DNA of 64,000 nucleotides from Bernardetia sp. ABR2-2B (GCF_037126435.1 NZ_CP147020.1:1715293-1779292), one strand, 5' to 3'; counted from the first letter of the stretch, positions 46,954 through 61,979 are shown. A program made the numbers and translations. The notes: generated from the letters alone by a model not told the origin.

Positions 46954-47064
46954 GTCAATAATTTGTCAGTAAAGAAACTTATTTACAAGATTATAAATTA
47001 AATAAGTTCTTATTTTTAAATAGGCTAATTTACATTCGTAATTTTTAATCCGTAATTGTCCCTT

Positions 47065-48196: not shown

Positions 48197-49033
48197 ATGT
48201 CTGCAAATATGGGCGAAATAGAAATAGCCGAGCTACGCAAACTGACTACTTTCATTAAAGAAAAGTTTGATTATAACTTTAAGGACTATGCCATGTCGTC
48301 TTTTCGAAGACGAATCAAGCGTATGCTTGATTTATACAAGCTTCAAACTGTCGATGAACTGATTCATATTCTCAATACAAAAGAAGGCTTTTTTGAGGAG
48401 TTTGTTTCTGAACTTACTGTAAATGTTACTGAAATGTTTCGTGACCCTACGTTTTGGCGTGTCTTACGTGAGCATATCATTCCTAACATTATGCTCAATC
48501 ACAACAAAATAAGTATTTGGCACGCAGGCTGTTCTTCTGGTGAAGAGATTGTTTCTATGTCTATTGTTTTAGATGAAATGGGTATTTTGGATAAGGCAAA
48601 AATTGTAGCCACAGATATTGACCGTTCTATTATTGCTAGAGCAAAAGAAGGACGTTACCCTCTCAAGCACATGGAAGTAAATCGTAAGAATTATTTGCGT
48701 TATCAAGGTAAATATTCTTTAGAGAAATATTATACAGAGGTAGGTTCGGAAGCTGTAATAAATAAATCTCTTTTAGAAAATGTATCCTATCGCAAACACG
48801 ATTTGGTACAGGGAAGTGTTTTTTCAAAATTTGATTTAGTTTTGTGTAGAAACGTAATGATTTATTTTAATCAAACACTACAAAATCAAGTTTTACACCG
48901 TTTGCACGAAAGTTTGTTCAAATATGGCTACTTAGTTATCGGTTCGAAAGAATCTTTAATTTGGTGTGATATTGCTCACAAATTTATTGTAGTAAATAAC
49001 GAAGAAAAGATTTATAAAAAAATTAAAGATTAA
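48197..49033 (+). CDS. cheR: protein-glutamate O-methyltransferase CheR
   Basis: CheR N-terminal domain (FKDYAMSSFRRRIKRM) plus a SAM-binding domain (ISIWHAGCSSGEE ... VLCRNVMIYF). Confidence 0.9.
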   Translation: MSANMGEIEIAELRKLTTFIKEKFDYNFKDYAMSSFRRRIKRMLDLYKLQTVDELIHILNTKEGFFEEFVSELTVNVTEMFRDPTFWRVLREHIIPNIMLNHNKISIWHAGCSSGEEIVSMSIVLDEMGILDKAKIVATDIDRSIIARAKEGRYPLKHMEVNRKNYLRYQGKYSLEKYYTEVGSEAVINKSLLENVSYRKHDLVQGSVFSKFDLVLCRNVMIYFNQTLQNQVLHRLHESLFKYGYLVIGSKESLIWCDIAHKFIVVNNEEKIYKKIKD

Positions 49034-49138
49034 TTTAATATTAATAAAAAAATTTTATATATAATCACAATTTTTAATTAGCTATGCTGATTATTTCATA
49101 ATTCGTAATTGTTCCTAAGTCAGCTAACTTTGAGCTAA

Positions 49139-49747
49139 ATGGTAAAAGAAGCACATCTTATAAATAAATACAAGGCAGTCGTAATTGGTGGTTCGGCAGG
49201 AAGTTTTCAACCTATGGTTCAAATTCTTTCTTCTATTCCTCGTGAGTTTCCCTTACCTATATTTCTATGTTTGCATCGGCTCAAACATGTGCGTCATGGT
49301 TTTGTAGAAGCTCTCTCCATAAAAAGCCAAAAAGAAATTATAGAGCCAATGGACAAGGAAAGTATTAAAAAAGGAATTGTATATTTAGCTCCAGCCAACT
49401 ATCACATGGCAGTCGAACTTGGCAACTCTGTTTCACTGAATACCGAAGGTTTATTAAACAATTCTCGTCCAGCAATAGATATAACCTTCGAATCAGCAGC
49501 TTATGTATATCGTGATAAATTAATTGGTATCCTACTTTCAGGTGCAAATAAAGATGGAGCTGTAGGAATGCAGAAAATAAAACACCGTAAAGGACTTACA
49601 ATTATTCAAGATATTGAAGAAAGTATGATTAATGCAATGCCATTAGCTGCAAAAAACATTGTAGATATTGATTACGAGTTGAAGGTAGATGAAATTATAG
49701 GTTTTTTATTAAAATTAAATAAAATCTATCAACAAGAAAAGATATAG
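49139..49747 (+). CDS. cheB: protein-glutamate methylesterase CheB catalytic domain only (no receiver domain)
   Basis: VIGGSAGS active-site Ser context and the His/Asp motifs of the CheB methylesterase fold; 202 aa, no REC domain. Confidence 0.8.
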   Translation: MVKEAHLINKYKAVVIGGSAGSFQPMVQILSSIPREFPLPIFLCLHRLKHVRHGFVEALSIKSQKEIIEPMDKESIKKGIVYLAPANYHMAVELGNSVSLNTEGLLNNSRPAIDITFESAAYVYRDKLIGILLSGANKDGAVGMQKIKHRKGLTIIQDIEESMINAMPLAAKNIVDIDYELKVDEIIGFLLKLNKIYQQEKI

Positions 49748-49793
49748 TTTAAAGTTTTTAGAGCATCAAAAGAGACAAAAAAATTGAGAATAA

Positions 49794-50579
49794 ATGAAAA
49801 AATTCTTTCAAAATAGTATCTGGTTTGGTTTGGCAGTAATATATGCCATAGGTATTCTTGTGTCTGGTCTATTATTGCTTTATTTATACGAAAAACTTTC
49901 AGATGCAGGAATTTTGACTGAAAATGATCATCTTTTAATGGGTTTTATAATCTTTGAATTATTATTAGGACTTGTTTTAATGTTTGGTTTCTATGTTAAG
50001 TGGCAACGCAAACAAGCGCAAGGAGATATTATTTATGTAGATAGATATGTGAATGAAAATACACAGGAATCAGAAATTAAAACAAAAGTTTTAGATTGGA
50101 ATAATCAAAGAGCTATTTTATCCGAAATAATCAAAAACCCTAATAAATCACAGTCTTCAAACGAGATTCTCAAACATATTTGTAATGAGTTAGAAGCTGT
50201 TTCTGGGGCGTTTTATGTCTCTCATATAGATACAGATGTAAGAAGAATAGAACTTATTGCTACCTATGCTTTTGCTCTGCCTGATAGTCAATCTCTATTT
50301 TACGAATTTGGAGAAGGGATTGCAGGGCAAGTAGCCAAAGTAGGTCAAAAAACATATCTTAGAGACATTCCAGAAGGATACCTGAATATTCTTTCAGGCT
50401 TAGGAGAAAGTCAGCCTTCTGTTCTTTTGGCTGTTCCGATACAACAAGATAATACTCAAAAAGATATAGAAGAAAACCCAGTAAAAGGAGTTATTGAATT
50501 AGCTTCCTTTAAAGAATTTACTGATTCAGAGAAAGAATATATAGATAAAGTAGCTGATTTAGTAGCCAAACATCTATAA
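49794..50579 (+). CDS. membrane-anchored GAF domain protein
   Basis: Two N-terminal TM helices, then a GAF domain clearly homologous to the GAF of the downstream sensor (ATYAFALPDS..FGEGIAGQVA vs ATYAYHKRKY..FAEGLVGQAA). Confidence 0.7.
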   Translation: MKKFFQNSIWFGLAVIYAIGILVSGLLLLYLYEKLSDAGILTENDHLLMGFIIFELLLGLVLMFGFYVKWQRKQAQGDIIYVDRYVNENTQESEIKTKVLDWNNQRAILSEIIKNPNKSQSSNEILKHICNELEAVSGAFYVSHIDTDVRRIELIATYAFALPDSQSLFYEFGEGIAGQVAKVGQKTYLRDIPEGYLNILSGLGESQPSVLLAVPIQQDNTQKDIEENPVKGVIELASFKEFTDSEKEYIDKVADLVAKHL

Positions 50580-50647
50580 AATTTAAAATTATTAGTTAAT
50601 TTTAAAAATAAATCTAACTATTTAATTAATCACTTTAATTAATCTCT

Positions 50648-53600
50648 ATGCTCAATCGATTCAGCATTCGTACCAAAATCACAATACGACTTATAGTGGT
50701 AGTGCTTATGGCTGCATTTGTGCTAAGTTGGGTTTCTTACGATCGTGGAAAAGAAGCCGTCGAACAGCGTTATTGGCAAAACCTTAAAGTAATTAATAAA
50801 CTTAAAAGTAAAGAAATTCAAGGAGTATTTTCTCAGATTAGTTCGCATGTTAAATTACTTCAAGAATATTCTTCTGTACTTCAATCCCTTCGCAGTGTAA
50901 GTACAATTAGTGAGAGTAAATATACAGATACATTACAAAATCAGCTTCGCAATAAATTAAATGAATCATTACTTCCCTTTAAAGAAACCTATGACTATCC
51001 AAATCTAGTGCTTGTCAATAAAGACGGAAGGATAATTTATAAAACTAATTCAACAGCTGATTATCTTATTTTTGGTAGAATACACGACCGTTATCAAGAG
51101 CTTCTGACACACGCTAATGATGGAATTTATTTTAATGAACCAAGAATAGCAAAAGAGCTTTCAGGAAACCCTAGCCGTATGGAAGCGATTGCTCCTATCT
51201 ACGACCCACAACAAAATTACTTAAAGATAGGCTATATCATTGTCGAACTAGATATGGAAGTTATCTATAATGTTGTTGAAGATAAAACAGGACTAGGAGA
51301 AACAGGTGAGATTGTTTTGGGAAGACAAAAAAGTGCTACTACCATTACTATTTTAAATGAATTAAAAACTCAAGGTCCAAATACTCCTAAAATAATGGGA
51401 GATGGAAAAGCAGAAGCATTGGAAAAAGCATTAAAAGAAAAAACAGAAGGCTATGAGTTTTCAATAGACTATAAAGGCGACGAAACACTTGCTACTTGGA
51501 ATTATATTGAACCTGTCGGTTGGGGAATGGTTACACAAGTAAACAAAAGTGCCGTAGAAAGTGATTTGAATGGGCTTGTCATTGCATTTATCCTAACAGG
51601 TGTAGTGATTATCGTTGTTGCTGGTGGACTTTCTTTTATATTCTCTACTCTTCTTACTCGTCCTATCGAACGCCTACAAGTTGTTTTAGGAATTGTAGCA
51701 AAAGGAGAACTACCAAAAGAAATAAAAAAAGAAACCAATGATGAAATTGGACAAATGACAGAGGCTGTCAATAATTTAGTACAAGCTCTCAAACGAACAG
51801 CTGACTTTGCCTATCAGATTGGAAAGGGAAATTATAAAGCCTCTTTCAAACCTATGGGCAATAATGACACCTTGGGTAATGCTTTGATTACGATGCGAGA
51901 TAGTATTCAAGATGCAGATAGTAAAGACAAACAAAGAAACTGGATTGTATCAGGTGTAGCAGAAGTAGGACAGATTTTACGTGAATATCAAACTATAGAG
52001 CTTCTTTCAGAAAAAATCATTGCTTTTATCACAGAAAAAATAAACGCTGTTCAAGGCAGTTTTTATATTGTAGAAGAAGATGAAATTACACAAGAAAGCA
52101 CCATTGAAATAAGTGCAACCTATGCTTATCATAAAAGAAAATATCTCAAAAAATCATTTCGTTTTGCAGAGGGATTAGTAGGACAAGCAGCTATTGAGCA
52201 AGATATTATTCTTCGCACCGAAATTCCTGATAATTATATGACCATTAGTTCAGGACTTTTAGGAGAACAGAAGCCAAAAGCTTTACTTATCGTACCTCTT
52301 ATTACAGATGAAAAAGTATTTGGAGTAATGGAATTTGCAGGGTTTTCAAGATTTACTGATACAGAGGTAAATTTTGTTCGTGAAATTAGTATTATTATTG
52401 CCCGAACTATCTTCAATATAAAGGTAAATGACCGTACTGTTTCTCTTCTTCAAGAATCACAGCAAATGAGTGAAGAGCTTCAATTACAACAAGAAGTCTT
52501 GCGCCAAAATGCAGAAGAAATGGAATCTACACAAGAGGAACTCCGTAAATCTAATGCACGACTAGAAGAGCAAGTCTTGGAAGTAAATCGTACTCAAAAA
52601 CGTATGCAAGTCCTGCTAGAAAATGCCTCAGAAGTAATTACTATTTATGAGAAGAATGGAAAAGTTCGCTACATAAGTCCATCTATTGAATCTATTTTGG
52701 GCTACGAACAATCTGAACTCATCGGAACAAATGATGTAGATAATGTTCAACAAGCAAGTAAAGAAGCCTTTAGGCAACTTTTTGAAAACCTTTTAGAACA
52801 TCCAGACGAAAATATTACTATTCAATATGAATACCGTAAAAAAAATGGAGATGCTGTTTGGTTAGAAGCTACAGGAACAAATCGTTTGAGCGACCCTGCT
52901 ATTAGAGGTATTGTTATTAACTCTAGAGATATTACAGAGCGAAGACGTGCCGAACAAGAATCTCGTATGCGTGGACAAATGCAAGCACTTTCGGAAAACT
53001 CACCTGACCTTATTATGCGTCTGAACCCAGACGGAAAGATTTTTTATGTCAATCCAACCATCAAAAATTTAACTGGTTTAGAGCCTTCAACACTGACAAA
53101 CAAGATGATGAAAGGTTCAGAATTGCCTACTGCTATTGTCAAACGTATTGAAGAAATTACAGAAAAAGTAAATAGAACAGGAAATAAAGTGCTAAGGGAA
53201 CTAGAAATTGATTCGGTTGCAGGTCAGCGTGTCATGCAAACAACAGCGATTCCTGAGTACAACGACCAAGCTTATTTAGAATCAATACTGGTAGTTTCTC
53301 ACGATATAACAGAGAGAAAAAGAACTGAATTTGAGGTTAGAGAAACAAACCGTAAAATTTCAGAAAGTATTAACTATGCAAGACGTATTCAAGGTGCAAT
53401 TTTACCAGAAAGTCGTCATTTACAAAGCATTTTTCCAGATTCCTTTATTTTTTATAAACCTAGAGATATTGTTAGTGGAGATTTTCCTTGGTATGTACAA
53501 AAGGGCGATGATGTTTATATTGCAGCCGTTGATTGTACAGGACATGGAGTACCTGGGGCTTTGATTTCTCTTATTGGATACTTTATTTTAAATGAAATTT

Positions 53601-54115
53601 TAAGTTCTAGTCAGACTATTCTTTCTCCTGCCCAAATACTAGATAGACTAAATAAAGGAGTTGCACAAACACTAAGACAGGATACAGAAGGAAATACCAA
53701 AGACGGTATGGACATTGCACTTTGTCGTATTAATAGAAAACAAAATAAGGTAGAATTTGCTGGAGCACATCGTCCTTTATATGTCTTACCAAAAGAAGGT
53801 AACTTAATACAAATAAAAGGAGACCGAAAACCAATTGGTGGTGGAGCTATTTACAGTAAATCTGATGACTTTAGTAATCATAATTATAAAATTTCTAAAG
53901 GAGATTCACTTTATATTTTCTCTGATGGTTTGCCTGACCAGTTTGGAGGAGAAGAGGATAAAAAATTCTCTGCTAAACAGATACGTGAAATTTTAGTAGA
54001 AAATAGAAATCAAAACATGGAAGAAATGCATATTACTTTCGAAAATCGTTTTGAGCAATGGATGGGAAATAGTAAACAAATTGATGATATTTTGATGATT
54101 GGCATTAAGTTTTGA
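50648..54115 (+). CDS. multidomain sensor PP2C phosphatase (Cache-like periplasmic domain, TM, HAMP, GAF, coiled coil, 2 PAS, PP2C/SpoIIE; SiaA-like)
   Basis: TM helices flank a roughly 270-aa periplasmic region; HAMP (LTRPIERLQVVLG ... DEIGQMTEAVNNLV); GAF; PAS motifs; C-terminal PP2C motifs SGDFPWY, DCTGHGVPGALIS, FSDGLPDQFGG. Confidence 0.85.
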   Translation: MLNRFSIRTKITIRLIVVVLMAAFVLSWVSYDRGKEAVEQRYWQNLKVINKLKSKEIQGVFSQISSHVKLLQEYSSVLQSLRSVSTISESKYTDTLQNQLRNKLNESLLPFKETYDYPNLVLVNKDGRIIYKTNSTADYLIFGRIHDRYQELLTHANDGIYFNEPRIAKELSGNPSRMEAIAPIYDPQQNYLKIGYIIVELDMEVIYNVVEDKTGLGETGEIVLGRQKSATTITILNELKTQGPNTPKIMGDGKAEALEKALKEKTEGYEFSIDYKGDETLATWNYIEPVGWGMVTQVNKSAVESDLNGLVIAFILTGVVIIVVAGGLSFIFSTLLTRPIERLQVVLGIVAKGELPKEIKKETNDEIGQMTEAVNNLVQALKRTADFAYQIGKGNYKASFKPMGNNDTLGNALITMRDSIQDADSKDKQRNWIVSGVAEVGQILREYQTIELLSEKIIAFITEKINAVQGSFYIVEEDEITQESTIEISATYAYHKRKYLKKSFRFAEGLVGQAAIEQDIILRTEIPDNYMTISSGLLGEQKPKALLIVPLITDEKVFGVMEFAGFSRFTDTEVNFVREISIIIARTIFNIKVNDRTVSLLQESQQMSEELQLQQEVLRQNAEEMESTQEELRKSNARLEEQVLEVNRTQKRMQVLLENASEVITIYEKNGKVRYISPSIESILGYEQSELIGTNDVDNVQQASKEAFRQLFENLLEHPDENITIQYEYRKKNGDAVWLEATGTNRLSDPAIRGIVINSRDITERRRAEQESRMRGQMQALSENSPDLIMRLNPDGKIFYVNPTIKNLTGLEPSTLTNKMMKGSELPTAIVKRIEEITEKVNRTGNKVLRELEIDSVAGQRVMQTTAIPEYNDQAYLESILVVSHDITERKRTEFEVRETNRKISESINYARRIQGAILPESRHLQSIFPDSFIFYKPRDIVSGDFPWYVQKGDDVYIAAVDCTGHGVPGALISLIGYFILNEILSSSQTILSPAQILDRLNKGVAQTLRQDTEGNTKDGMDIALCRINRKQNKVEFAGAHRPLYVLPKEGNLIQIKGDRKPIGGGAIYSKSDDFSNHNYKISKGDSLYIFSDGLPDQFGGEEDKKFSAKQIREILVENRNQNMEEMHITFENRFEQWMGNSKQIDDILMIGIKF

Positions 54116-54496
54116 TAAACTTCTTTTCGACTTTATTGAAGGTTCATTTAAGTTTTCAAGAAAATCAACTTTTTTTTAATTTATTTTAATTCTTACTTTG
54201 TTCTTCTAATAATTTATCCTAACTTAAAGGCATGTTTAAAGATAAAGGTTTAGATAAAAACCAAACAGTAGGTAAAAATCTTATACAAATGCTCTTTATT
54301 TTCGCTAAAAAGCCTTTTTATTTGGACAAAACCTTTGCTTAGAACATCATTTTCTATGTACTTTTGTTAAACTAGCTTGTAGCAGGTTTATCATACAGAT
54401 ATTTTGATTCAACTATTTTACTTAATTGTTTTAATATAGACTCTAATTTTTTTAAAGATACTCTCAAGACATTTTCAAGATATTAAGCCACTAATT

Positions 54497-55078
54497 ATGA
54501 AATATATTTATGACTTACACAAGGTTATGCTCAAACAAAGCTTGCTTTTAGTATATGAAGGCGAGTTTAGTCAAGAAATAACTAAGGCTGTTTTGGCAAT
54601 GGCAGAACGTAATATGGATTCCTTTGGTGAGCAACGCAAAGTCAAGACAAAGGTCTTTAATGTCATGGTAGAAGATTTACAAAACATCTTTAAACACTCT
54701 CAAAGCTATCAAGAAGAGATTTATGGAAAGAATAATGCTATTTTTTCTTTAGCCAAAACTGACGACCATTATTTCGTTCTTTCTGGGAATCCACTTTTTA
54801 CAAATGAAGTAGAAGCTTTAAAGAATCGTCTTGAAGAAATTAATTTGTTAGATGCTGCTGGTCTAAAAGAAGAATACAAACGCATTATCAAAAGTAAGAA
54901 AGGCGTTGGAAAAGATGGATTATCTGATAAAGGAGGCGCAGGTCTTGGGTTCATTGATATGGCTCGTAAATCAGGTAATAAAATTCGTTTTGACTTTGAG
55001 AAGATCAATGATGAACTTTCATTTTTCTCACTTCGCATGACAATCAATCGTAATCCTGATGCAGAAAAAAAAGGTTAA
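54497..55078 (+). CDS. SiaB-like GHKL-fold Ser/Thr protein kinase (anti-sigma-factor-like)
   Basis: About 190 aa with the G2-box-like GGAGLGFIDMARKSG of HATPase_c/RsbW-type kinases, directly upstream of a DUF1987 gene. Confidence 0.55.
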   Translation: MKYIYDLHKVMLKQSLLLVYEGEFSQEITKAVLAMAERNMDSFGEQRKVKTKVFNVMVEDLQNIFKHSQSYQEEIYGKNNAIFSLAKTDDHYFVLSGNPLFTNEVEALKNRLEEINLLDAAGLKEEYKRIIKSKKGVGKDGLSDKGGAGLGFIDMARKSGNKIRFDFEKINDELSFFSLRMTINRNPDAEKKG

Positions 55079-55185
55079 AATAACAGATAAAATATTCAAA
55101 ATACAGTCAATTTAATTTGACACTATATTAATTCAAACTTACAACTCATTTTAGAATTTTATACTAAAAATACTCTATAAAGAAT

Positions 55186-55548
55186 ATGGACGTAATCAAC
55201 TTAGAACCAACAGAAGACACACCAAAAGTAATCTTAGACAAAGATCGTCAGGCATTCGAAATATCTGGTCGTTCTCTTCCTGAAGATGCAGCCGAATTTT
55301 ATCAACCTATCTTAGATTGGTTAGACGAATACGAAAACCAAGTAAATCCAGACACGAAATTTATGTTTAAGTTGGAGTATTTCAATACTGCATCATCAAA
55401 ACTTATCTTGGATATTCTTTCTAAATTAGAAGAAATTGAAGGTGCATCTGTAATTTGGTATTTTCATGAAGATGATGAAGATATGGAGGAAGCAGGAGAA
55501 GAATTTTCTGACCTTGTAGATATTCCTTTTGACTTCAAAACCTATTAA
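55186..55548 (+). CDS. DUF1987 (SiaC-like) phospho-switch protein
   Basis: 120 aa, EYFNTASSK motif with Thr at position 68, acidic C-terminus. Confidence 0.65.
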   Translation: MDVINLEPTEDTPKVILDKDRQAFEISGRSLPEDAAEFYQPILDWLDEYENQVNPDTKFMFKLEYFNTASSKLILDILSKLEEIEGASVIWYFHEDDEDMEEAGEEFSDLVDIPFDFKTY

Positions 55549-55897
55549 TAAAAATAGTTTTTTTATAAGAATAACAGCTCATTTGAATTGATTATTTTTA
55601 TGTGAAGTTAATTTATACAGCTTGTGTAATTAAGGAGTTGATTATCAAATACTTAATTATTCATTGTCAATTAATTTTTATAGGGTAATTTCGCTTAGTC
55701 TTCTCTATTCGAAGTTTGCCCTTTTATGCCTTTTAAATAAAAATACTCTTGATTTACAAAACTGTATAGTTTAAAAGAGATAAGAAAGAAGATATTATAT
55801 AAATAGAAACTTGACTTTCAAGTGGCGAATCAGAAGTAATACTTAATAATGAATTTCGTAATTTTTAATGCGTAATTCGTAATCGACATTAAAGAAT

Positions 55898-58800
55898 ATG
55901 AGTGAAGAAATACTAAAAGCCCTAACCCAATTATTTGCAGTTGTTTCTAAACAAGACGGTGGCGTATCTGAAGCCGAGCGTAATTTTGTTATTCGATTCT
56001 TCGAACAAGAGTTGGATAGAAAAAGACTTGCTGAATATGTTGCACTCTATGACCAATATGCAGAATCAGGAGTAGAAGGAGAAGATAAAAAAGGAGCTGA
56101 AGCAACAGCAGAAAATCCAGAAGATATAGTTATAATAACAGAAGGCAAAACACCTGAAGAAATAGAACAGCAAGAAAAAGATAAAGCTAGAGCCATACGA
56201 AGAGCTAAACGAAAAGCAAAAAAAGCAGCAGAAGGAGGAGATAGTGGAAACATTAAGTTAAAAGATAGTATGCGTACGCTTAAAGTATGTAGAAATATCA
56301 ATAAAACACTTGCTCAAAAGCAAAAAGTTATTGTTACATTTAAGATTTTAGAGATGCTTGCCGTTGATAGAAACTTTAGTAGCCATAGATTAGAAATTAT
56401 ACAAACAGCTTCTGAAATCTTTAGAATTCCAAAAGAAGAATATGAATTGATGGAAAACTTTGTTATCTCAACAGATTCTCCTCAAATGTTCGATTCCCCA
56501 GACCTTTTAGTATTTGATGAAGAAGCTCCTCCAGTAGAGAGCAGAAAAAAATTCATTGATTCAGGACTTTTAGATGGCGAAATTGTTTTTATTCGTCTGA
56601 AAAGTGTTGAATTATATTTTACAAAATATAATGGTAATGATGAGATTTTCCTAAATGGTCAGCTTGTCAAAAAGGGAACAATCGTTCTTTTCTCAAATGG
56701 TAGTGTTTTCAAAACACCGAAAGGTGCGCCTCTTTATTATAGTGATTTAGTTACTCGTTATAATGATACAGCTCAACAAAATCCTATCTCATTTAATGTC
56801 ATTAATTTAGATTTCCGTTTTCCAGACGGAACTATCGGACTTCGCAACGTAAATATTGCAGAAGGACCAGGAAAACTGCTCAGTATAATGGGAGCAAGTG
56901 GAGCAGGAAAAACTACGCTTCTCAATGTTTTGGCTGGTTTGGAAAATCCTTATAAGGGCGAAGTACGTATAAACGGTTTCAATCTTCATACAGAATCAGA
57001 TATGGTAGAGGGCGTAATTGGTTACGTTTCTCAAGATGATTTACTAATAGAAGAACTCAGTGTTTATCAAAACTTGTATTATAACGCTAAGCTTTGCTTT
57101 AAAAATCTTAGTGAAGAAGAGCTTGATGCTCGTGTGATGGAGGTTTTGGCAAGTTTAGGATTAGATAGAATAAAAGACATTACAGTGGGTAGTGTATTGA
57201 ATAAAATGATAAGTGGAGGGCAACGTAAGCGTCTCAATATTGCTTTGGAGCTTATTCGTGAACCTGCCGTTATGTTCGTAGATGAGCCTACATCAGGTCT
57301 TTCTTCAAGAGATTCAGAAAATGTAATTGACCTTCTAAAAGAACTTTCACTCAAAGGAAAACTTATTTTCGTAGTAATTCACCAGCCTTCTTCAGACATT
57401 TATAAGATGTTTGATAAAATGATTTTGTTAGATACAGGAGGCTATCCAATTTATTATGGAAATCCTGTTGAAGCGATTGCTTATTTCAAACGTGCTACAA
57501 ATCAAGTAGGAAGTGATAACGGACAATGTCAAACATGTGGAACAGTTACACCAGAACTTCTCTTTAATATAATTGAAGCAAGAGTAGTAAATGAATATGG
57601 AGAATATACAGGTGTAAGAAAAATAGCTCCACCAGAATGGAACGATTTGTACAAACAAACACATTCTATTTCACCAGTAGAAACTGTAAACGAGCCACCA
57701 CCAAACTCACTCAGTATTCCTTCAAAGATAAAACAGGCTGCTATTTTTATGACTAGAGATTTTCTCTCTAAGATTAGTAATACGCAGTATATGATGATAA
57801 ATCTTTTAGAAGCTCCTTTACTTGCACTTTTACTCTCTGTAATCGTCCGATTCAAAAATGCAAAAGATGCAGAAGAATATATATTCCGATATAATGATAA
57901 TGTACCTGCTTATATGCTGATTGCTATTATTGTTGCTCTTTTTATGGGATTAACAGTAAGTGCTGAGGAAATCATTCGGGATAGAAAAATTCAGAGGAGA
58001 GAATCGTTCTTAAATCTAAGTAGGATAAGTTATCTGACTTCGAAGGTAGGTATTTTGTTTACTCTTTCAGCTATTCAAACGCTCACTTTTGCGCTCATTG
58101 GTAATACTATTTTAGAGATTCAAGGGATGTATTGGCAATATTGGCTTGTTTTATTTAGTATTTCTTGTTTTGCCAATGCCTTAGGACTAAATATTTCAGC
58201 TTCCTTCAATTCGGCTGTAACTGTTTATATTCTTATTCCATTATTACTTATTCCTCAAATGATTTTGAGTGGTGCAATTTTTAGATTTGACCAACTTAAT
58301 AATTCAATTGTAGAAAAGGGACGTATTCCACTTGTTGCTGACTTGATGGCTTCTCGTTGGGCGTATGAAGCGTTGGCTGTTGAGCAGTTTAAGGATAATC
58401 CTTTTGAAAGGCAGATTTTTGATGTAGAATTTGAGATTAGTCAGTATCAACATAAAGCCAATTTCTGGATTCCAAAGATGCAAGAAATTTTAGACCGTTC
58501 AGCAAATTATGCAGAGAGCGCACAAAATGAGAATGCTGATTCTGTTATGGTATTGCTTCAAGATGATATTGCATTGCTTAAACACGAATGGGAAAGTGAA
58601 AAAGTAAACGAAATACTTGATCGTTTGAAGATTCAGGCAGAAGACTTAGAACTTTCTTCAGAAGAGCAAAAACTATTAAATATAGATTTGGAAAAGACAC
58701 TTCAAATTATAGAGTTTGATAGAGAAATGGCTGACAAACTGAAAGCTGTCTTGGAAATGATACGCTCAAAGGTATTGACTCCCAAGTTTGTGATGGCTGG

Positions 58801-59203
58801 TGAAAGAAAAGATAGCATCATAAATGCAATGGAACAAAACCCTGCAAACAAACTTTCAGTAGTTGAACGAAAAAATAAATACACCAATGAGTATTTAGAA
58901 TCACAGGTGAAAAATGAAATGATAAAAGATAAATATGTAGAAGGAAATGGATTTTTGGTACAACAAACAGACCCTATTTTTGCTGTTCGTAATCCAAATA
59001 ACCTTTCTAGCCCATTAGACTATCGTACTCACTTCTTTGCTCCTGAAAAGCAATTTTTAGGTAATTATTTTGATACAATGTGGTTTAATGTATGTGTAAT
59101 GTGGGTAATGACAATTTTACTACTTATTACTCTTTATTTTGAATTACTCAAAAGATTAATTGATGTACTTGGAGGTATTAACTTTAGGAAAAAGAAAAAA
59201 TAA
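55898..59203 (+). CDS. ABCG-type half transporter (ATPase then ABC-2 permease) with N-terminal TerB-like domains and a possible FHA-like beta-sandwich
   Basis: N-terminal TerB-like DGGVSEAERNFVIRFF; Walker A GASGAGKTT, signature ISGGQRKRLNIALEL, Walker B MFVDEPTSGLSS; six C-terminal TM helices. Segment IFLNGQLVKKGTIVLFSNGSVF is FHA-like (uncertain). Confidence 0.8.
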   Translation: MSEEILKALTQLFAVVSKQDGGVSEAERNFVIRFFEQELDRKRLAEYVALYDQYAESGVEGEDKKGAEATAENPEDIVIITEGKTPEEIEQQEKDKARAIRRAKRKAKKAAEGGDSGNIKLKDSMRTLKVCRNINKTLAQKQKVIVTFKILEMLAVDRNFSSHRLEIIQTASEIFRIPKEEYELMENFVISTDSPQMFDSPDLLVFDEEAPPVESRKKFIDSGLLDGEIVFIRLKSVELYFTKYNGNDEIFLNGQLVKKGTIVLFSNGSVFKTPKGAPLYYSDLVTRYNDTAQQNPISFNVINLDFRFPDGTIGLRNVNIAEGPGKLLSIMGASGAGKTTLLNVLAGLENPYKGEVRINGFNLHTESDMVEGVIGYVSQDDLLIEELSVYQNLYYNAKLCFKNLSEEELDARVMEVLASLGLDRIKDITVGSVLNKMISGGQRKRLNIALELIREPAVMFVDEPTSGLSSRDSENVIDLLKELSLKGKLIFVVIHQPSSDIYKMFDKMILLDTGGYPIYYGNPVEAIAYFKRATNQVGSDNGQCQTCGTVTPELLFNIIEARVVNEYGEYTGVRKIAPPEWNDLYKQTHSISPVETVNEPPPNSLSIPSKIKQAAIFMTRDFLSKISNTQYMMINLLEAPLLALLLSVIVRFKNAKDAEEYIFRYNDNVPAYMLIAIIVALFMGLTVSAEEIIRDRKIQRRESFLNLSRISYLTSKVGILFTLSAIQTLTFALIGNTILEIQGMYWQYWLVLFSISCFANALGLNISASFNSAVTVYILIPLLLIPQMILSGAIFRFDQLNNSIVEKGRIPLVADLMASRWAYEALAVEQFKDNPFERQIFDVEFEISQYQHKANFWIPKMQEILDRSANYAESAQNENADSVMVLLQDDIALLKHEWESEKVNEILDRLKIQAEDLELSSEEQKLLNIDLEKTLQIIEFDREMADKLKAVLEMIRSKVLTPKFVMAGERKDSIINAMEQNPANKLSVVERKNKYTNEYLESQVKNEMIKDKYVEGNGFLVQQTDPIFAVRNPNNLSSPLDYRTHFFAPEKQFLGNYFDTMWFNVCVMWVMTILLLITLYFELLKRLIDVLGGINFRKKKK

Positions 59204-59428
59204 CTCAATACAAGTTTAAAACAATTTTGGGTTATTACTTGATTTTTCTAATAGATTTACTAATTTAGTTTATTATTTAATTACTCATTTTAGTTTTAGA
59301 GTTAAACCTATTTAGTTTATCAAACTCATATCATTAAAATTATCTCAATTACGACAATATTCTCTTATATGAAACATCTAGTTTATTCTATTCATACCAG
59401 TTCTATAATTAAGAAAAAAATGCTTTCT

Positions 59429-60352
59429 ATGAAAAAACTACAACTCATCGCTTTTCTACTCACTTTTGGTCTTTTTACACTTACTTCTTGTGGAGGAGAT
59501 AAGCCAACAGAAGAAACAACAGGAACAACAGAAGCAAATGCAGGAACTGCTGATACAGGAGCTGACGAAGATATCTTAGCCCCAGGGGTTATGAACGATA
59601 TTATTCAGTCTATCCCTTCACCTTTAGAGGTTTCTATTTTAATAAAAGATTTGGGAACAGATTATCACAAAGATAATTTGAGTAATCCTGATTTAGTAGA
59701 TAATTATACTAATAATTACAAAAAGGCTCTGAACTTGGGTGTGTATAGTACGGATTTAGGTTATGCTAATATTTATGAAAAAAATCAAGATGCACTAAAC
59801 TATCTCAACTCTGTCAAAAAATTAGCTGATGGACTAAATATTGGTCAGTTCTTCGATTATACAACCATCAAAAAACTAACTCAATCTAACAAAGATTTAG
59901 ATTCTCTCTTACAACTTACTACTCAGAATTTTGAGAAAATCAATACAGAACTTCGTAAGCAGAAACGTGAGTATTTAAGTATTCTTATTCTTACAGGTGG
60001 TTGGTTAGAGGCTAACTATATTACTTCTTTAGTTTTCAAAGAAAGTGGTAATGAAGACCTTAGAGAAAAAATAGGAGAACAAAAACTTGTTCTGAACCGT
60101 ATTCTTTTAGTTTTGAATGTTTATAAAAACAAACCTAACTTTAGTGGTTTCATAGCTGATTTGGAAGAACTCAAAAAAGTATATGAAAATGTAGAAATTG
60201 TAGAAAAAGACGGGCAGCCAAAAATGGAAGTCGTAAATGGTGAAATTGTAATCACAGATACAAAAGAAACTGTTGTCAATATATCCGAGTCTGATGTACA
60301 GTCTATCAATAGTTTGGTAGCTTCTATCCGTAATAAAATTATCAGTAATTAA
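59429..60352 (+). CDS. hypothetical lipoprotein
   Basis: The internal ATG gives MKKLQLIAFLLTFGLFTLTSCGG; the upstream extension to 59369 is possible. Confidence 0.45.
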   Translation: MKKLQLIAFLLTFGLFTLTSCGGDKPTEETTGTTEANAGTADTGADEDILAPGVMNDIIQSIPSPLEVSILIKDLGTDYHKDNLSNPDLVDNYTNNYKKALNLGVYSTDLGYANIYEKNQDALNYLNSVKKLADGLNIGQFFDYTTIKKLTQSNKDLDSLLQLTTQNFEKINTELRKQKREYLSILILTGGWLEANYITSLVFKESGNEDLREKIGEQKLVLNRILLVLNVYKNKPNFSGFIADLEELKKVYENVEIVEKDGQPKMEVVNGEIVITDTKETVVNISESDVQSINSLVASIRNKIISN

Positions 60353-60766: not shown

Positions 60767-61198
60767 ATGAAACATTTATTAATTCTTTTCTGTGCTTTTT
60801 TCTTTGTCGCATTTGCAGCTACTGACGCTCAAGCACAATGTAATACTGACCTTTATAACAACCTTGCGCTCAAAAAACTCGCTCCAGGTTACACTTTCGT
60901 AAAAAGTTACCGTATTGACGGTAAAGGAGGAAGTCGTAAAAAAATTGAATACACGTGTGTATTCAGTAAAGGTACTGATTATATGATTCGTATGGCTGGT
61001 AAAGATGGAGGACCAAATGGTCTTATTGCTACTCTTTATGACTCTCGTCGTTCGCAGTTAGCAACTAGCTACTTGAATAACAAGTATTATGATGGTCTCG
61101 TTTTCAAATGTGCATCAACAGGTATCTATTATTTGAGTTTTACTTTTAAAGACTCAAATAGTTATTGTGGAGCTGCCGTTTTAGGTTTCCGTCGCTAA
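60767..61198 (+). CDS. hypothetical secreted protein
   Basis: Signal peptide ending AQAQ, 143 aa. Confidence 0.5.
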   Translation: MKHLLILFCAFFFVAFAATDAQAQCNTDLYNNLALKKLAPGYTFVKSYRIDGKGGSRKKIEYTCVFSKGTDYMIRMAGKDGGPNGLIATLYDSRRSQLATSYLNNKYYDGLVFKCASTGIYYLSFTFKDSNSYCGAAVLGFRR

Positions 61199-61313
61199 AA
61201 CCTCGCTATTTATAGAAAAAGTTTACTAATTATATTAATTAGCTAAAGCATTACAGAGCAAAAGAACATATCTTTTGCTCTTTTTTCATGTTTAATTTAA
61301 AGAAAGGTAAATA

Positions 61314-61979
61314 ATGACAAAAAAAACAATCTCCTTTTCGCATCAAGCTAGATATTTCACTTTTGGAAATTTATCCAATGAGACAGAATATATATGGATA
61401 GTATTTCACGGATATGGACAGTTAGCTGAATATTTTATAAAAAAATTTGAAGGGCTAAATTCTCAATCTAATACTGAAAGACATTACGTAATTGCACCTC
61501 AAGGACTTTCAACAGCTTATTTGAAGAGCTTTACAGGAAGAGTGGGAGCAAACTGGATGACCAAATATGATAGAGAATTAGATATAGAAAATAACTTAAA
61601 TTACTTAGAAACTTTAATAAGCAATGAATTAAAAGATATTTCTAGCAGTAAAAACAAAAAAATAATTGTTTTAGGGTTTTCACAGGGAGCTGCTACGGCA
61701 AGTCGTTGGATTGCTCATACAAATTTTGAAATTTCTGAGTTTCTAGTATGGGGAGGAATGATAGCTCACGATATTGATAGTATTTTCTATAAAAAAATGA
61801 AAGATAAAATAACACTTTTTTACGGCGACCAAGATGAATTTATAAGTGAAGAAGGACTAAAAACAAATCTTATAAAATTAGAAAAACTAGATATTACTCC
61901 AAGTTTAATTCCCTACAAAGGTACTCATAGAATATATACAGATGTTTTAAATGAATTTATTGAAAACTCTTTAAGGTAG
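61314..61979 (+). CDS. alpha/beta hydrolase (phospholipase/carboxylesterase family)
   Basis: Nucleophile elbow GFSQGA, 221 aa. Confidence 0.65.
   Translation: MTKKTISFSHQARYFTFGNLSNETEYIWIVFHGYGQLAEYFIKKFEGLNSQSNTERHYVIAPQGLSTAYLKSFTGRVGANWMTKYDRELDIENNLNYLETLISNELKDISSSKNKKIIVLGFSQGAATASRWIAHTNFEISEFLVWGGMIAHDIDSIFYKKMKDKITLFYGDQDEFISEEGLKTNLIKLEKLDITPSLIPYKGTHRIYTDVLNEFIENSLR

What the first reader, a model, noticed from the sequence alone, without database searches (positions are those of the whole stretch)
48197..59203. Chemotaxis-type methylation pair (CheR plus receiver-less CheB) wired to a SiaABC-like PP2C / GHKL-kinase / DUF1987 partner-switching module, with no c-di-GMP, MCP, CheA or CheW component
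Six consecutive same-strand genes sit here: CheR, a CheB methylesterase domain alone, a membrane GAF protein, a 1155-aa Cache-HAMP-GAF-PAS-PAS-PP2C sensor, a roughly 190-aa kinase-like protein with a GHKL G2 box, and a 120-aa DUF1987 protein. The next gene is a TerB-domain ABCG-like transporter. In the established Pseudomonas SiaABCD system, the PP2C SiaA and kinase SiaB toggle phosphorylation of SiaC (DUF1987), which then controls the diguanylate cyclase SiaD. This window has no GGDEF gene, so the downstream effector is unknown. CheR/CheB normally act on MCP signalling domains, and none is present, which suggests the PP2C sensor or the GAF protein is the methylation substrate. That would be reversible methylation adaptation layered on a Ser/Thr partner switch. 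I do not know this combination as a described system.
Basis: partly seen in the sequence, partly recalled or inferred. Interest (0 to 1): 0.85.

Follow-up and report, generated by a model that had tools for sequence, protein, structure and literature searches.

The report
Methylation-tuned phospho-switch controlling an exporter
A gene cluster conserved across gliding Cytophagales bacteria joins chemotaxis-type methylation enzymes, which have no chemoreceptor here, to a sensor phosphatase, kinase and phosphoprotein switch whose likely target is a membrane exporter; this wiring appears undescribed, and all biochemical steps are inferred.

Summary
All six domain calls hold, and so does the TerB/ABCG call. 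The source is Bernardetia sp. (Cytophagales).

The unit is larger than reported. CheR, CheB, TM-GAF, sensor PP2C, SiaB, SiaC, ABC exporter, a lipoprotein (p327) and a secreted protein (p143) are colinear:
- 61 of 67 related loci keep the upstream genes.
- 60 of 63 keep ABC plus p327.

No GGDEF motif and no conserved MCP, CheA or CheW appears. The one exception is Rapidithrix, where a complete Che cluster follows the block.

New findings:
1. The exporter sits where SiaD sits in Pseudomonas. It has a TerB plus FHA-fold N-terminus, like Rv1747, so it is the likely SiaC target.
2. The sensor's most conserved segment is a GAF-adjacent coiled coil of heptad-spaced Glu-Glu pairs.
3. The same GAF-coil module lies immediately upstream of the closest CheR relatives in 35 of 40 plasmid records. 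These come from Alphaproteobacteria, Betaproteobacteria (Caballeronia), Deinococcota and Bacillota, where the output is usually a histidine kinase.
4. When the cluster splits, CheR-CheB-GAF stay together.

Best reading: a SiaABC-type partner switch gating an exporter, with CheR/CheB methylation acting on a non-MCP coiled coil. Methylation, phosphorylation and SiaC-exporter binding are all inferred, not shown. I rate it a new variant of a known kind, interest about 0.7.

The parts
48197..49033 (+). CheR-type protein-glutamate methyltransferase (278 aa). It has the N-terminal helical domain, with an Arg-rich helix FRRRIKR at aa 36, and a SAM domain with AGCSSGEE at aa 110.
   Evidence: Pfam CheR 150 bits and CheR_N 31 bits. 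Motif positions and conservation in 65 orthologues. Left boundary of the conserved block: upstream genes differ between genera.
49139..49747 (+). Receiver-less CheB methylesterase (202 aa). Candidate catalytic triad S19 (GGSAGS), H46 (LHRLKH), D139 (ANKDG).
   Evidence: Pfam CheB_methylest 150 bits, no Response_reg. Triad motifs lie in invariant columns of 65 orthologues. 100% identical to a protein of Bernardetia sp. ABR2-2B.
49794..50579 (+). Small membrane GAF protein (261 aa): hydrophobic N-terminal stretches read by eye as two membrane helices, a variable acidic linker, then a GAF domain of the same subfamily as the sensor's GAF. No coiled coil after it.
   Evidence: Pfam GAF_2/GAF. Alignment of 67 orthologues. 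It stays with CheR-CheB when the cluster is split (L093, L094).
50648..54115 (+). Sensor phosphatase (1155 aa): dCache-like periplasmic domain, TM, HAMP, GAF, coiled coil, PAS, PAS, SiaA-like PP2C (SpoIIE). Motifs SGDF at 943, DCTGHG at 962, SDGLPDQ at 1092, IDDIL at 1145.
   Evidence: Pfam. NCBIfam SiaA model hits aa 891-1155 at 208 bits, below the equivalog cutoff of 700. Motif positions.
52427..52585 (+). Coiled coil between GAF and PAS1 (sensor aa 594-646): N-[E/D]-R-T, then xEE[L/M]xxx heptads (SEELQLQ QEVLRQN AEEMEST QEELRKS NARLEEQ). Candidate methyl-accepting segment.
   Evidence: Most conserved region of the sensor: identity to the window protein 0.71 against 0.48 overall and 0.55 for PP2C, in 63 orthologues below 70% identity. 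Per-column table with a binary E37/Q31 position at aa 626. The same motif follows GAF in proteins next to CheR in other phyla. No Pfam family matches it, MCPsignal included.
54334..54366 (+). Bacteroidetes-type promoter-like motif (TTTG, about 21 nt, TACTTTTG) in the 381-bp gap before siaB.
   Evidence: Pattern search in intergenic regions. A consensus match only, not tested for function.
54497..55078 (+). SiaB-family protein kinase (193 aa, DUF6272) with an invariant GGAGLG box.
   Evidence: Pfam DUF6272 133 bits. PDB 6kko_A E 4.4e-13. NCBIfam NF038262 172 bits, above the cutoff of 85. Adjacent to SiaC in 80 of 80 loci.
55186..55548 (+). SiaC-family (DUF1987) phosphoprotein (120 aa). Thr68 in LEYFNT68ASSK aligns with the mapped phosphosite LLYLNT68SSIK of P. 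aeruginosa SiaC.
   Evidence: Pfam SiaC 134 bits. PDB 6kko_C/6k4f alignment. T68 and neighbouring residues invariant in 86 orthologues. Phosphosite from bioRxiv 10.1101/674879.
55898..59203 (+). ABCG-type exporter (1101 aa): TerB-like helical domain (aa 3-190, with a disordered charged insert), FHA-fold beta-sandwich (aa 203-290; nt 56504-56767), ABC_tran NBD, ABC-2 membrane domain, and a C-terminal extension of about 270 aa ending in a hydrophobic stretch. Proposed output of the switch.
59369..60352 (+). Conserved hypothetical protein p327. The likely true start is 59420. It probably is a lipoprotein (LTSC lipobox, read by eye) and belongs to no family. The model shows a helical bundle plus a small sheet.
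60767..61198 (+). Conserved secreted small protein p143 (signal peptide and 4 Cys, read by eye), no family.
   Evidence: No Pfam, NCBIfam or PDB match. Present after p327 in 59 of 63 loci.
61255..61281 (+). Terminator-like hairpin (11-bp stem, T-run) just after p143. Possible right end of the unit.
   Evidence: The number of such sites in the region is not above chance.
61314..61979 (+). Alpha/beta hydrolase p221 (Abhydrolase_2/FSH1), often but not always linked.
   Evidence: Pfam. Present downstream in 34 of 59 loci.

Best explanation
This is a conserved Cytophagales signalling-and-export unit built from four modules.

- M2, the sensor: a membrane protein (dCache-HAMP-GAF-coiled coil-PAS-PAS) with a SiaA-like PP2C phosphatase domain.
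- M3, the switch: a SiaB-family kinase and a SiaC-family phosphoprotein. By homology with Pseudomonas SiaABC, the kinase phosphorylates SiaC on Thr68 and the sensor PP2C removes the phosphate. The phosphorylation state of SiaC therefore reports the sensor's input.
- M4, the output: there is no diguanylate cyclase. The gene in the SiaD position is an ABCG-type exporter whose cytoplasmic N-terminus is a TerB domain plus an FHA-fold domain. A lipoprotein and a small secreted protein follow it. One form of SiaC most likely binds this N-terminal region and switches export on or off.
- M1, the methylation layer: CheR, a receiver-less CheB and a small membrane GAF protein. CheR most likely methylates, and CheB demethylates or deamidates, heptad-spaced Glu-Glu pairs in the near-invariant coiled coil just after the sensor's GAF domain. 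Paralogous GAF-coil proteins elsewhere in the genome may be substrates too. Methylation would reset phosphatase output, as adaptation does in chemoreceptors. The GAF protein would act as membrane partner or adaptor.

Shown: domain identities, conserved residues, gene order and its conservation, and the cross-phylum CheR/GAF-coil linkage.

Inferred: every biochemical step (methylation site, phosphotransfer, SiaC-exporter binding) and the exported substrate.
For: 1. Domain and homology calls: Pfam, NCBIfam and PDB. SiaC T68 aligns with the mapped phosphosite and is invariant.

2. Synteny:
- 61 of 67 loci keep CheR+CheB+sensor upstream.
- 60 of 63 keep ABC+p327 downstream, and 59 of those also keep p143.
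- SiaB is adjacent in 80 of 80 loci.
- Genes upstream of CheR differ between genera.
- SiaB-SiaC-ABC-p327-p143 persists without CheR/CheB/sensor in L018, L034 and L076. This links SiaBC to the exporter.

3. [quoted passage not shown] That paper suggests DUF1987 proteins modulate adjacent proteins.

5. Coiled coil:
- It is the most conserved part of the sensor.
- AEEM[E/Q][A/S]T fits the [EQ][EQ]xx[AS][ST] half of the MCP methylation consensus (consensus recalled from my own knowledge).
- One position is a binary E/Q.
- The Arg-rich CheR N-domain helix is conserved.

6. Cross-phylum linkage:
- 35 of the 40 plasmid records with the closest CheR relatives carry a GAF-coil coding stretch 2-3 kb upstream on the same strand.
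- In the loci inspected, the two genes overlap or abut.
- A receiver-less CheB follows CheR in the Brucella and Neorhizobium loci.
- The annotated genes of the Brucella, Deinococcus and Neorhizobium loci include no MCP, CheA or CheW.

7. A second PP2C sensor in the window (21142-24957) has GAF-SpoIIE but no such coil.
Against: - No biochemical evidence exists for any step.
- The FHA-fold domain is not recognised by Pfam's FHA model. It seems to lack the canonical Arg and His of the phosphothreonine pocket; only Gly227, Ser236 and Asn253-Gly254 are conserved. Phospho-SiaC binding is therefore uncertain.
- The MCP-like consensus match is limited to the Cytophagales coil. Across phyla, only the xEELxxx heptads are conserved.
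- None of the 150 best coil-bearing representatives has a fused CheR or CheB domain.
- Many paralogous GAF-coil proteins are not next to CheR/CheB. The coil could be a general signalling helix.
- When the cluster splits, CheR-CheB stay with the small GAF protein and not with the sensor.
- Some Cytophagales have true Che systems. I could not check the rest of the Bernardetia genome for MCPs.
- Large intergenic gaps (381, 349 and 414 bp) and promoter-like motifs suggest several transcription units in this strain.
Confidence: 0.45

Rival explanations
1. CheR and CheB here are ordinary adaptation enzymes for conventional chemoreceptors (MCPs) encoded elsewhere in the genome. Their place at the head of the cluster would reflect shared ancestry or co-regulation with a Che-to-PP2C pathway, not action on the sensor.
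For: - Rapidithrix has PAS-MCP, CheW, CheY, REC-CheB and CheA directly after p143. No CheR is visible in that Che cluster.
- Persicobacter has a Che cluster whose CheC-REC-SpoIIE output carries a PP2C domain 43.6% identical to the window sensor's.
- So Che systems exist in the order and feed the same kind of phosphatase.
Against: - Only 1 of 85 loci (1.5 Mb scanned) has an MCP motif nearby.
- Persicobacter's Che cluster has its own CheB and CheR, only 26% and 29% identical to the window proteins.
- Rapidithrix keeps both a REC-CheB and the receiver-less CheB.
- The closest CheR relatives in other phyla sit next to GAF-coil kinases with no MCP/CheA/CheW among the annotated neighbours.
Confidence: 0.2
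2. The methyl-accepting substrate is the small membrane GAF protein, or the GAF domain shared by it and the sensor. It would act as a methylatable co-receptor that modulates the sensor through GAF-GAF contacts. The coiled coil would be only a signalling helix.
For: - CheR-CheB-GAF remain a three-gene unit when separated from the sensor and SiaBC in two lineages.
- Its GAF domain shares the subfamily motifs (EGLxGQ, SGLG, GVxExASF) with the sensor and with the CheR-linked kinases.
Against: - The small GAF protein is the least conserved member of the cluster (26-43% identity).
- Its acidic linker is variable and has no conserved Glu pairs.
- No counterpart of it is annotated in the alphaproteobacterial or Deinococcus CheR clusters, or seen among the ORFs of the Bacillus locus. 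There the shared element is GAF plus coil inside the kinase.
Confidence: 0.2
3. The SiaC-like protein does not regulate the ABC exporter. Its partner would be encoded elsewhere (for example a diguanylate cyclase, a sigma-factor regulator or another enzyme), and the exporter genes would be conserved neighbours for unrelated reasons.
For: - In L012 and L056, SiaB-SiaC occur with no ABC gene nearby. L050 lacks p327 and p143.
- The FHA-fold domain lacks most canonical phosphothreonine-binding residues.
- In this strain a 349-bp gap separates siaC from the ABC gene.
Against: - ABC+p327 follow SiaC in 60 of 63 loci.
- The SiaB-SiaC-ABC-p327-p143 block survives loss of the upstream genes (L018, L034, L076).
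- The exporter occupies SiaD's position.
- It carries an otherwise unexplained cytoplasmic regulatory N-terminus.
- No GGDEF motif was found in 1.5 Mb of loci.
Confidence: 0.25

Closest known systems
Pseudomonas aeruginosa SiaABCD partner-switch system
   Same: - Sensor PP2C with HAMP (SiaA-like), a SiaB-family kinase, and a DUF1987/SiaC phosphoprotein with the same Thr68 site.
- Same gene order: phosphatase, kinase, SiaC, effector.
   Different: - There is no diguanylate cyclase. An ABCG-type exporter with a TerB plus FHA-fold N-terminus sits in the effector position.
- The sensor is far larger (dCache, GAF, coiled coil, two PAS).
- CheR, CheB and a GAF protein are attached.
- The sensor, kinase and SiaC fall below NCBIfam's equivalog cutoffs for SiaA, SiaB and SiaC.
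Chemosensory adaptation (CheR/CheB acting on MCPs), including systems with a receiver-less CheB such as the Campylobacterota F3 class
   Same: - CheR with both of its domains.
- A CheB methylesterase with candidate triad motifs conserved.
- A receiver-less CheB has precedent (PMC9239204).
- The candidate substrate is an acidic helix with Glu pairs spaced seven residues apart.
   Different: - No MCP signalling domain, CheA or CheW in the unit.
- The candidate substrate has no sequence match to MCPsignal.
- The output is a Ser/Thr phosphatase, not a histidine kinase acting on a motor.
Hybrid histidine kinase - CheR - receiver-less CheB - REC/kinase clusters of Alphaproteobacteria, and related arrangements in Deinococcus and Bacillus. 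These are annotated but, as far as I could find, not described.
   Same: - They hold the closest CheR relatives outside the Cytophagales orthologues (35-43% identity).
- A sensor gene with the same GAF subfamily followed by the same LLxESQ...EELQxQxEEL coil lies immediately upstream.
- A receiver-less CheB follows CheR in the Brucella and Neorhizobium loci.
   Different: - In the loci whose domains I checked (Brucella, Deinococcus), the output is HisKA/HATPase with receiver domains. Neither has a PP2C on the sensor, SiaB/SiaC, an exporter or a small GAF protein.
- In Deinococcus and Bacillus no separate CheB was seen next to CheR.
Mycobacterium tuberculosis Rv1747 (FHA-FHA-ABCG-like exporter regulated by Ser/Thr phosphorylation)
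   Same: - A fused NBD and ABC-2 exporter preceded by a cytoplasmic FHA-fold regulatory domain.
- It is linked to a Ser/Thr phosphorylation module.
   Different: - One divergent FHA-fold domain preceded by TerB, not two canonical FHA domains.
- Pfam's FHA model does not match, and the Arg/His of the phosphothreonine pocket appear absent.
- The kinase is SiaB-type (GHKL-like), not Hanks-type.
- Rv1747's regulation is cited from my own knowledge.
Che pathway with PP2C output found here in Persicobacter psychrovividus pPP4 (PAS-MCP, CheW, CheY, CheA, CheC-REC-SpoIIE, REC-CheB, CheR)
   Same: - Same bacterial order.
- The PP2C domain is 43.6% identical to the sensor's (E 6e-63).
- Methylation enzymes are coupled to a PP2C output.
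   Different: - It has MCP, CheA, CheW, CheY and a receiver-bearing CheB.
- Its CheR and CheB are only 29% and 26% identical to the window's.
- No SiaB/SiaC or exporter was found in the locus shown.

Membership tests
SiaABCD-type partner switch | Membrane sensor with a PP2C (SpoIIE-family) phosphatase domain related to SiaA | tested here: met
   Pfam SpoIIE 73 bits. The NCBIfam SiaA model aligns to aa 891-1155 at 208 bits, below the equivalog cutoff of 700, so it is a relative and not an orthologue. Conserved PP2C motifs were located.
SiaABCD-type partner switch | SiaB-family protein kinase | tested here: met
   NF038262 SiaB_fam_kinase 172 bits, above the cutoff of 85. The equivalog model scores 85 bits, below its cutoff of 225. 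PDB 6kko_A E 4.4e-13 over the full length.
SiaABCD-type partner switch | DUF1987/SiaC protein with the phosphorylatable Thr68 | tested here: met
   Pfam SiaC 134 bits. Alignment to 6kko_C places T68 on T68. Invariant in 86 orthologues. Phosphosite from 10.1101/674879.
SiaABCD-type partner switch | Diguanylate cyclase (GGDEF) effector SiaD | tested here: not met
   No GGDEF domain in any cluster protein, none in the Pfam-annotated homologous loci, and no R[YFLIV]GG[DE]EF motif in 1.53 Mb of loci plus window.
SiaABCD-type partner switch | Reversible phosphorylation of SiaC by the kinase and phosphatase | not testable with these tools
   Needs kinase and phosphatase assays or phosphoproteomics.
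Chemosensory (Che) adaptation system | CheR methyltransferase with N-terminal and SAM-binding domains | tested here: met
   Pfam CheR and CheR_N. The SAM motif and the basic N-domain helix are conserved.
Chemosensory (Che) adaptation system | CheB methylesterase with a Ser-His-Asp triad | tested here: met
   Pfam CheB_methylest 150 bits. The GGSAGS, LHRLKH and ANKDG motifs lie in invariant columns. Assignment of the triad residues comes from motif comparison from my own knowledge, not from a structure.
Chemosensory (Che) adaptation system | Receiver (REC) domain on CheB for feedback from CheA | tested here: not met
   The 202-aa protein has the methylesterase domain only. Orthologues are 195-207 aa.
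Chemosensory (Che) adaptation system | MCP signalling domain as substrate, with CheA and CheW | tested here: not met
   None in the cluster or in the window proteins scanned. None in the Pfam-annotated loci of Marivirga, Flammeovirga, Limibacter, SKYG131 and Thermoflexibacter. The MCP hairpin motif occurs in 1 of 85 loci, Rapidithrix only. The rest of the Bernardetia genome could not be searched.
FHA-regulated ABCG-like exporters (Rv1747 type) | Fused ABC_tran NBD plus ABC-2 membrane domain | tested here: met
   Pfam ABC_tran 105 bits and ABC2_membrane 56 bits. The best NCBIfam match is the ABCG/white-type TIGR00955, below its cutoff.
FHA-regulated ABCG-like exporters (Rv1747 type) | N-terminal FHA domain | tested here: inconclusive
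FHA-regulated ABCG-like exporters (Rv1747 type) | Canonical phosphothreonine-binding residues (GR, SxxH, NG) | tested here: inconclusive
   Gly227, Ser236 and Asn253-Gly254 are invariant or nearly so. No conserved Arg follows the Gly, and no His follows the Ser. A conserved R/K at 233 precedes the Ser. I mapped residues to the FHA loops by eye from the predicted secondary structure.
CheR / receiver-less CheB clusters linked to GAF-coiled-coil sensors (grouping defined here) | Sensor gene with this GAF subfamily followed by the LLxESQ...EELxxxxEEL coil immediately next to CheR | tested here: met
   Window order: CheR-CheB-GAF-sensor. 35 of 40 closest plasmid CheR hits have the module 2-3 kb upstream on the same strand. 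Sequences read in Brucella, Neorhizobium, Deinococcus and Bacillus. In about 133 of 150 coil-bearing representatives, the GAF ends about where the coil match begins in the rows I compared.
CheR / receiver-less CheB clusters linked to GAF-coiled-coil sensors (grouping defined here) | Glutamate methylation of the coil by CheR | not testable with these tools
   Needs an in vitro methylation assay or mass spectrometry.

The most novel reading that the evidence does not exclude
CheR and a receiver-less CheB form a methylation-adaptation system that needs no chemoreceptor, CheA or CheW. Their substrate would be a conserved GAF-adjacent coiled coil of heptad-spaced Glu-Glu pairs. This module is found in sensors of at least four phyla, with interchangeable outputs: histidine kinases in Alphaproteobacteria and Deinococcota, and a PP2C/SiaB/SiaC partner switch gating an FHA-bearing ABC exporter in Cytophagales. 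In gliding Cytophagales it could supply the sensory memory that flagellated bacteria obtain from MCP methylation.
Probability: 0.4. Interest if true: 0.88.

Novelty: new variant of a known kind. Interest (0 to 1): 0.72.

Why it matters
Reversible glutamate methylation by CheR and CheB is the textbook mechanism of sensory adaptation. It is known essentially only on chemoreceptor signalling domains.

A conserved CheR/CheB pair attached to non-MCP sensors would extend methylation-based adaptation to one-component-like phosphatases and to histidine kinases. This cluster offers a concrete, sequence-defined candidate site to test.

It would also give the widespread DUF1987/SiaC switch a second kind of output, transport rather than c-di-GMP synthesis. 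It suggests how an ABCG-type exporter could be gated by Ser/Thr phosphorylation in Bacteroidota.

The unit is conserved across many Cytophagales genera, several of which I recall as gliding bacteria. How gliding Bacteroidota sense and adapt is, to my knowledge, poorly understood. The cluster therefore makes that question experimentally approachable.

Tried and rejected
- **CheB-CheR fusion lead.** From memory I expected CheB-CheR-PAS-kinase fusion proteins to carry this coil, which would give domain-fusion evidence. Among the 150 best representatives bearing the coil, none has a CheR or CheB domain. I dropped the lead.
- **Coil alone against plasmids.** tblastn gave no match, presumably because of the low-complexity filter. 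The GAF plus coil query worked.
- **Coil against Pfam.** Only noise, no MCPsignal.
- **Pfam FHA on the exporter N-terminus.** No hit.
- **p143.** No PDB, Pfam or NCBIfam match.
- **afdb50 fold library.** Not available.
- **Sigma-70 promoter and terminator scans.** Counts were not above shuffled expectation. I report only one Bacteroidetes-type motif and one hairpin, as weak features.
- **Rfam.** Nothing in the window.
- **Exact-sequence look-up of the window CheB.** Not on record, although search for homologous proteins returned an identical NCBI protein.
- **Literature searches.** Searches for DUF1987+CheR, CheBR kinases, coil sequence strings, CHASE3+CheR+CheB, gliding+CheR/CheB, and SiaB/SiaC+Bacteroid found nothing relevant.
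- **Exceptions to the synteny.** I checked whether loci that lack parts of the cluster hide MCP or GGDEF genes. They do not.

Full report

Yes. On the + strand there are ORFs at exactly the reported coordinates.

Pfam gives the following:

| Coordinates | Domains | Length |
|---|---|---|
| 48197-49033 | CheR_N + CheR | 278 aa |
| 49139-49747 | CheB_methylest alone | 202 aa |
| 49794-50579 | GAF | 261 aa |
| 50648-54115 | HAMP-GAF-PAS-PAS-SpoIIE | 1155 aa |
| 54497-55078 | DUF6272 | 193 aa |
| 55186-55548 | SiaC/DUF1987 | 120 aa |
| 55898-59203 | TerB (weak) + ABC_tran + ABC2_membrane | 1101 aa |

- The GAF protein has hydrophobic N-terminal stretches that I read as two membrane helices.
- The sensor's periplasmic part matches dCache_1 end to end but below Pfam's cutoff. 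Orthologues have precomputed dCache_1 hits on record.
- The 193-aa protein aligns over its full length with chain A of PDB 6kko (E 4e-13). I identify that chain as SiaB from its length and the 6kko/6kkp SiaB-SiaC entries; the depositor's label differs. It passes NCBIfam's SiaB-family kinase model (172 bits, cutoff 85) but not the SiaB equivalog model.
- The 120-aa protein aligns with SiaC structures. Its Thr68, in LEYFNTASSK, falls on the phosphosite T68 in LLYLNTSSIK that was mapped by mass spectrometry in P. aeruginosa (10.1101/674879).
- The CheB-like protein is identical to one from Bernardetia sp. ABR2-2B, order Cytophagales.

**2. The unit is larger than reported and strongly conserved.**

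Three look-ups of orthologous CheB genes (Marivirga, Flammeovirga, Limibacter) gave the same nine-gene order. That order is CheR, CheB, GAF, sensor PP2C, DUF6272, SiaC, ABC exporter, a protein of about 300 aa and a protein of 142 aa. Upstream neighbours were unrelated in each genus.

A scan of one genome per species with the SiaC protein returned 80 loci, all Cytophagales-like, with SiaC 70-99% identical. I ran tblastn with twelve window proteins against these loci:

| Test | Result |
|---|---|
| CheR+CheB+sensor colinear, in loci with at least 7 kb upstream | 61 of 67 |
| ABC+p327, in loci with at least 5.5 kb downstream | 60 of 63 |
| p143 as well | 59 of 63 |
| SiaB adjacent to SiaC | 80 of 80 |
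| Hydrolase p221 following | 34 of 59 |

The conserved block in the window therefore runs from 48197 to 61198. A terminator-like hairpin lies at 61255-61281.

**3. The exceptions reveal modules.**

- L018, L034 and L076 have SiaB-SiaC-ABC-p327-p143 with unrelated genes upstream.
- L050 has sensor-SiaB-SiaC-ABC without CheR/CheB.
- L012 and L056 have SiaB-SiaC alone.
- In two lineages, CheR-CheB-GAF form a three-gene unit far from the rest (SKYG131 in L093, Thermoflexibacter in L094).
- Thermoflexibacter keeps sensor-SiaB-SiaC-ABC-p327-p143 elsewhere, preceded by a second GAF-SpoIIE sensor.

So there are four modules:
- M1: CheR-CheB-GAF
- M2: the sensor
- M3: SiaB-SiaC
- M4: ABC-p327-p143

**4. 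No c-di-GMP or Che core, with one instructive exception.**

None of the Pfam-annotated loci has GGDEF, MCPsignal, CheA or CheW near the cluster. A motif scan of 1.53 Mb (loci plus window) found no GGDEF motif and one MCP hairpin.

That one hit is in Rapidithrix thailandica. There, 685 bp after p143, come a PAS-rich MCP, CheW, CheY, a receiver-bearing CheB and CheA.

A Persicobacter plasmid has a similar Che cluster that also encodes CheC-REC-SpoIIE, REC-CheB and CheR. Its PP2C domain is 43.6% identical to the window sensor's. Its CheR and CheB are only 29% and 26% identical to the window's.

Some Cytophagales therefore have true Che pathways that feed this type of phosphatase. The window cluster looks like a version without MCP, CheA and CheW, and with a different CheR/CheB lineage. 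I could not search the rest of the Bernardetia genome.

**5. What might be methylated?**

I aligned the full-length sensor orthologues and measured conservation over the 63 that are less than 70% identical to the window protein. The GAF-to-PAS linker (aa 594-646) is the most conserved part. Identity to the window protein is 0.71 there, against 0.48 overall and 0.55 for the PP2C domain.

The linker reads N-[E/D]-R-T, then heptads SEELQLQ / QEVLRQN / AEEMEST / QEELRKS / NARLEEQ. Features of this segment:
- Glu-Glu pairs recur every seven residues.
- There is a near-invariant RQNAEEM[E/Q][A/S]TQEEL core.
- One column (aa 626) is split E37/Q31.
- AEEMx[A/S]T fits the second half of the MCP methylation consensus, [EQ][EQ]xx[AST][AST]. 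Heptad spacing of sites is also the MCP pattern. Both points are from my own knowledge.
- CheR keeps its Arg-rich N-domain helix.

The second PP2C sensor in the window has no such coil.

**6. Cross-phylum linkage.**

The window CheR's closest relatives on plasmids (35-43% identity) lie in clusters without MCPs.

- **Brucella anthropi:** a CHASE3-GAF-coil-HisKA-HATPase-REC3 kinase overlaps the start of CheR. A 190-aa receiver-less CheB and a REC-kinase follow.
- **Deinococcus:** a polyHAMP-GAF-coil kinase precedes CheR.
- **Bacillus sp.:** an 896-aa GAF-coil protein is followed directly by CheR.

Their coils read:
- LLEETQRQSEELQVQSEELRVSNEELEEQ
- LLSQSQDMAQELQSQQEELRQTNEELEQK
- LLHESQAMTEELQVQSEELQTQAEELQMQAEEL

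I cross-matched coordinates from three searches. In 35 of the 40 best CheR records, a GAF-coil coding stretch lies 2-3 kb upstream on the same strand. The other five were simply not among the rows displayed.

Cytophagales plasmids also carry many paralogues of the module that are not next to CheR/CheB. Some are Cache-GAF-coil proteins that end right after the coil.

A scan of 1.8 billion representative proteins found 285 with the coil. Of the top 150, about 133 have this GAF, and in the rows I compared it ends about where the coil match begins. None has a CheR or CheB domain. Of eight that I scanned against Pfam, most are GAF-coil-PAS-array proteins with no enzymatic output domain detected.

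One enzyme pair serving many potential substrates resembles MCP logic. It equally allows the coil to be a general signalling helix. Also, the small GAF protein is what stays with CheR/CheB when the cluster splits. I therefore rate 'the coil is the substrate' at roughly even odds.

**7. The output.**

The exporter occupies the position of SiaD. The SiaC-SiaD paper suggests that DUF1987 proteins modulate adjacent proteins (PMC8457831).

Its first 311 residues were modelled with a 50-sequence alignment (pLDDT 82.7). The model shows a helical domain and a beta-sandwich.
- Foldseek agrees.
- A profile of the sandwich weakly hits the MEK1 FHA domain (E 0.0024).
- Most of the 78 sequence homologues found for the N-terminus carry a precomputed TerB hit.

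The architecture parallels Rv1747. However, Pfam's FHA model does not match. Only Gly227, Ser236 and Asn253-Gly254 of the usual pocket are conserved. Binding of phospho-Thr68 is therefore plausible, not established.

p327 appears to be a lipoprotein and p143 a secreted protein, judged by eye from their N-termini. Neither belongs to a known family, and their folds or sequences gave no functional clue. The transported substrate is unknown.

**8. Comparison, novelty and verdict.**

- The M2-M3 core is a relative of SiaABC, but it fails the SiaD feature.
- CheR/CheB are genuine family members, but they lack the MCP/CheA/CheW context and the CheB receiver domain.
- The exporter resembles Rv1747 in architecture.

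I found no paper describing CheR/CheB with DUF1987, or with GAF-coil kinases. The searchable library does not hold most subscription-journal papers.

I classify the cluster as a new variant of known kinds. The gene cluster is robust and real. The mechanism is well motivated but unproven.

Noticed in passing
window 21142-24957 (+) and 25054-25764 (-): A second large sensor phosphatase (Reg_prop/Y_Y_Y propeller, GAF, SpoIIE) lies next to an OmpR-type response regulator. It has no Glu-Glu heptad coil after its GAF. It could be another input to the same SiaC switch. Thermoflexibacter has a comparable second sensor directly upstream of the cluster (L095).
   Followed up: partly
window 29776-30609, 30613-31455, 31459-32304 (+): Three tandem paralogous membrane-protein genes (277-281 aa). 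They share the N-terminus MKSITFRNLVLGFY and the C-terminus SKTAKEEWKMK. Function unknown.
   Followed up: no
L096 12104-19353 (Rapidithrix thailandica): A complete chemosensory cluster (PAS-MCP, CheW, CheY, REC-CheB, CheA) starts 685 bp after the p143 orthologue. No CheR is visible in it. This is the only one of 85 loci with an MCP near the unit.
   Followed up: yes
L097 4906-14752 (Persicobacter psychrovividus plasmid pPP4): A Che cluster with an embedded CheC-REC-SpoIIE phosphatase, whose PP2C domain is 43.6% identical to the window sensor's, plus its own REC-CheB and CheR.
   Followed up: yes
L091 4951-6672, L092 5251-6654, L088 5999-7702; proteins P0319, P0322, P0323, P0326, P0335, P0336: Cytophagales encode many paralogues of the GAF-coil module. 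Some are Cache-GAF-coil proteins that stop right after the coil. Others are proteins of up to about 2000 aa, made of GAF-coil followed by PAS arrays with repeated coil matches and no enzymatic output domain detected.
   Followed up: partly
L098 6793-7935 (-) (Bacillus sp. N5-665): A gene of about 380 aa with a PP2C-like match lies convergent to the GAF-coil/CheR pair. This hints that a PP2C link to this CheR type is not confined to Bacteroidota. The PLSDB record called 'plasmid p1' is 5.5 Mb, so it is evidently a chromosome.
   Followed up: no
L090 5275-8715 (Neorhizobium plasmid): The protein annotated 'diguanylate cyclase' upstream of cheR-cheB has a coil and a following FLANMSHE stretch almost identical to those of the Brucella hybrid kinase. 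The annotation looks wrong, but I did not scan its domains.
   Followed up: partly
window 47056-47985 (+): An Ion_trans-family channel gene lies directly upstream of CheR. The tblastn comparison detected it upstream only in two close Bernardetia-type relatives (L006, L009), so it is not part of the conserved unit.
   Followed up: yes
window 54116-54496, 55549-55897, 60353-60766: Intergenic gaps inside the cluster are unusually long in this strain (381, 349 and 414 bp). In Marivirga the corresponding sensor-to-SiaB and SiaC-to-ABC gaps are under 130 bp. No Rfam family matches them. Two carry TAnnTTTG promoter-like motifs.
   Followed up: partly
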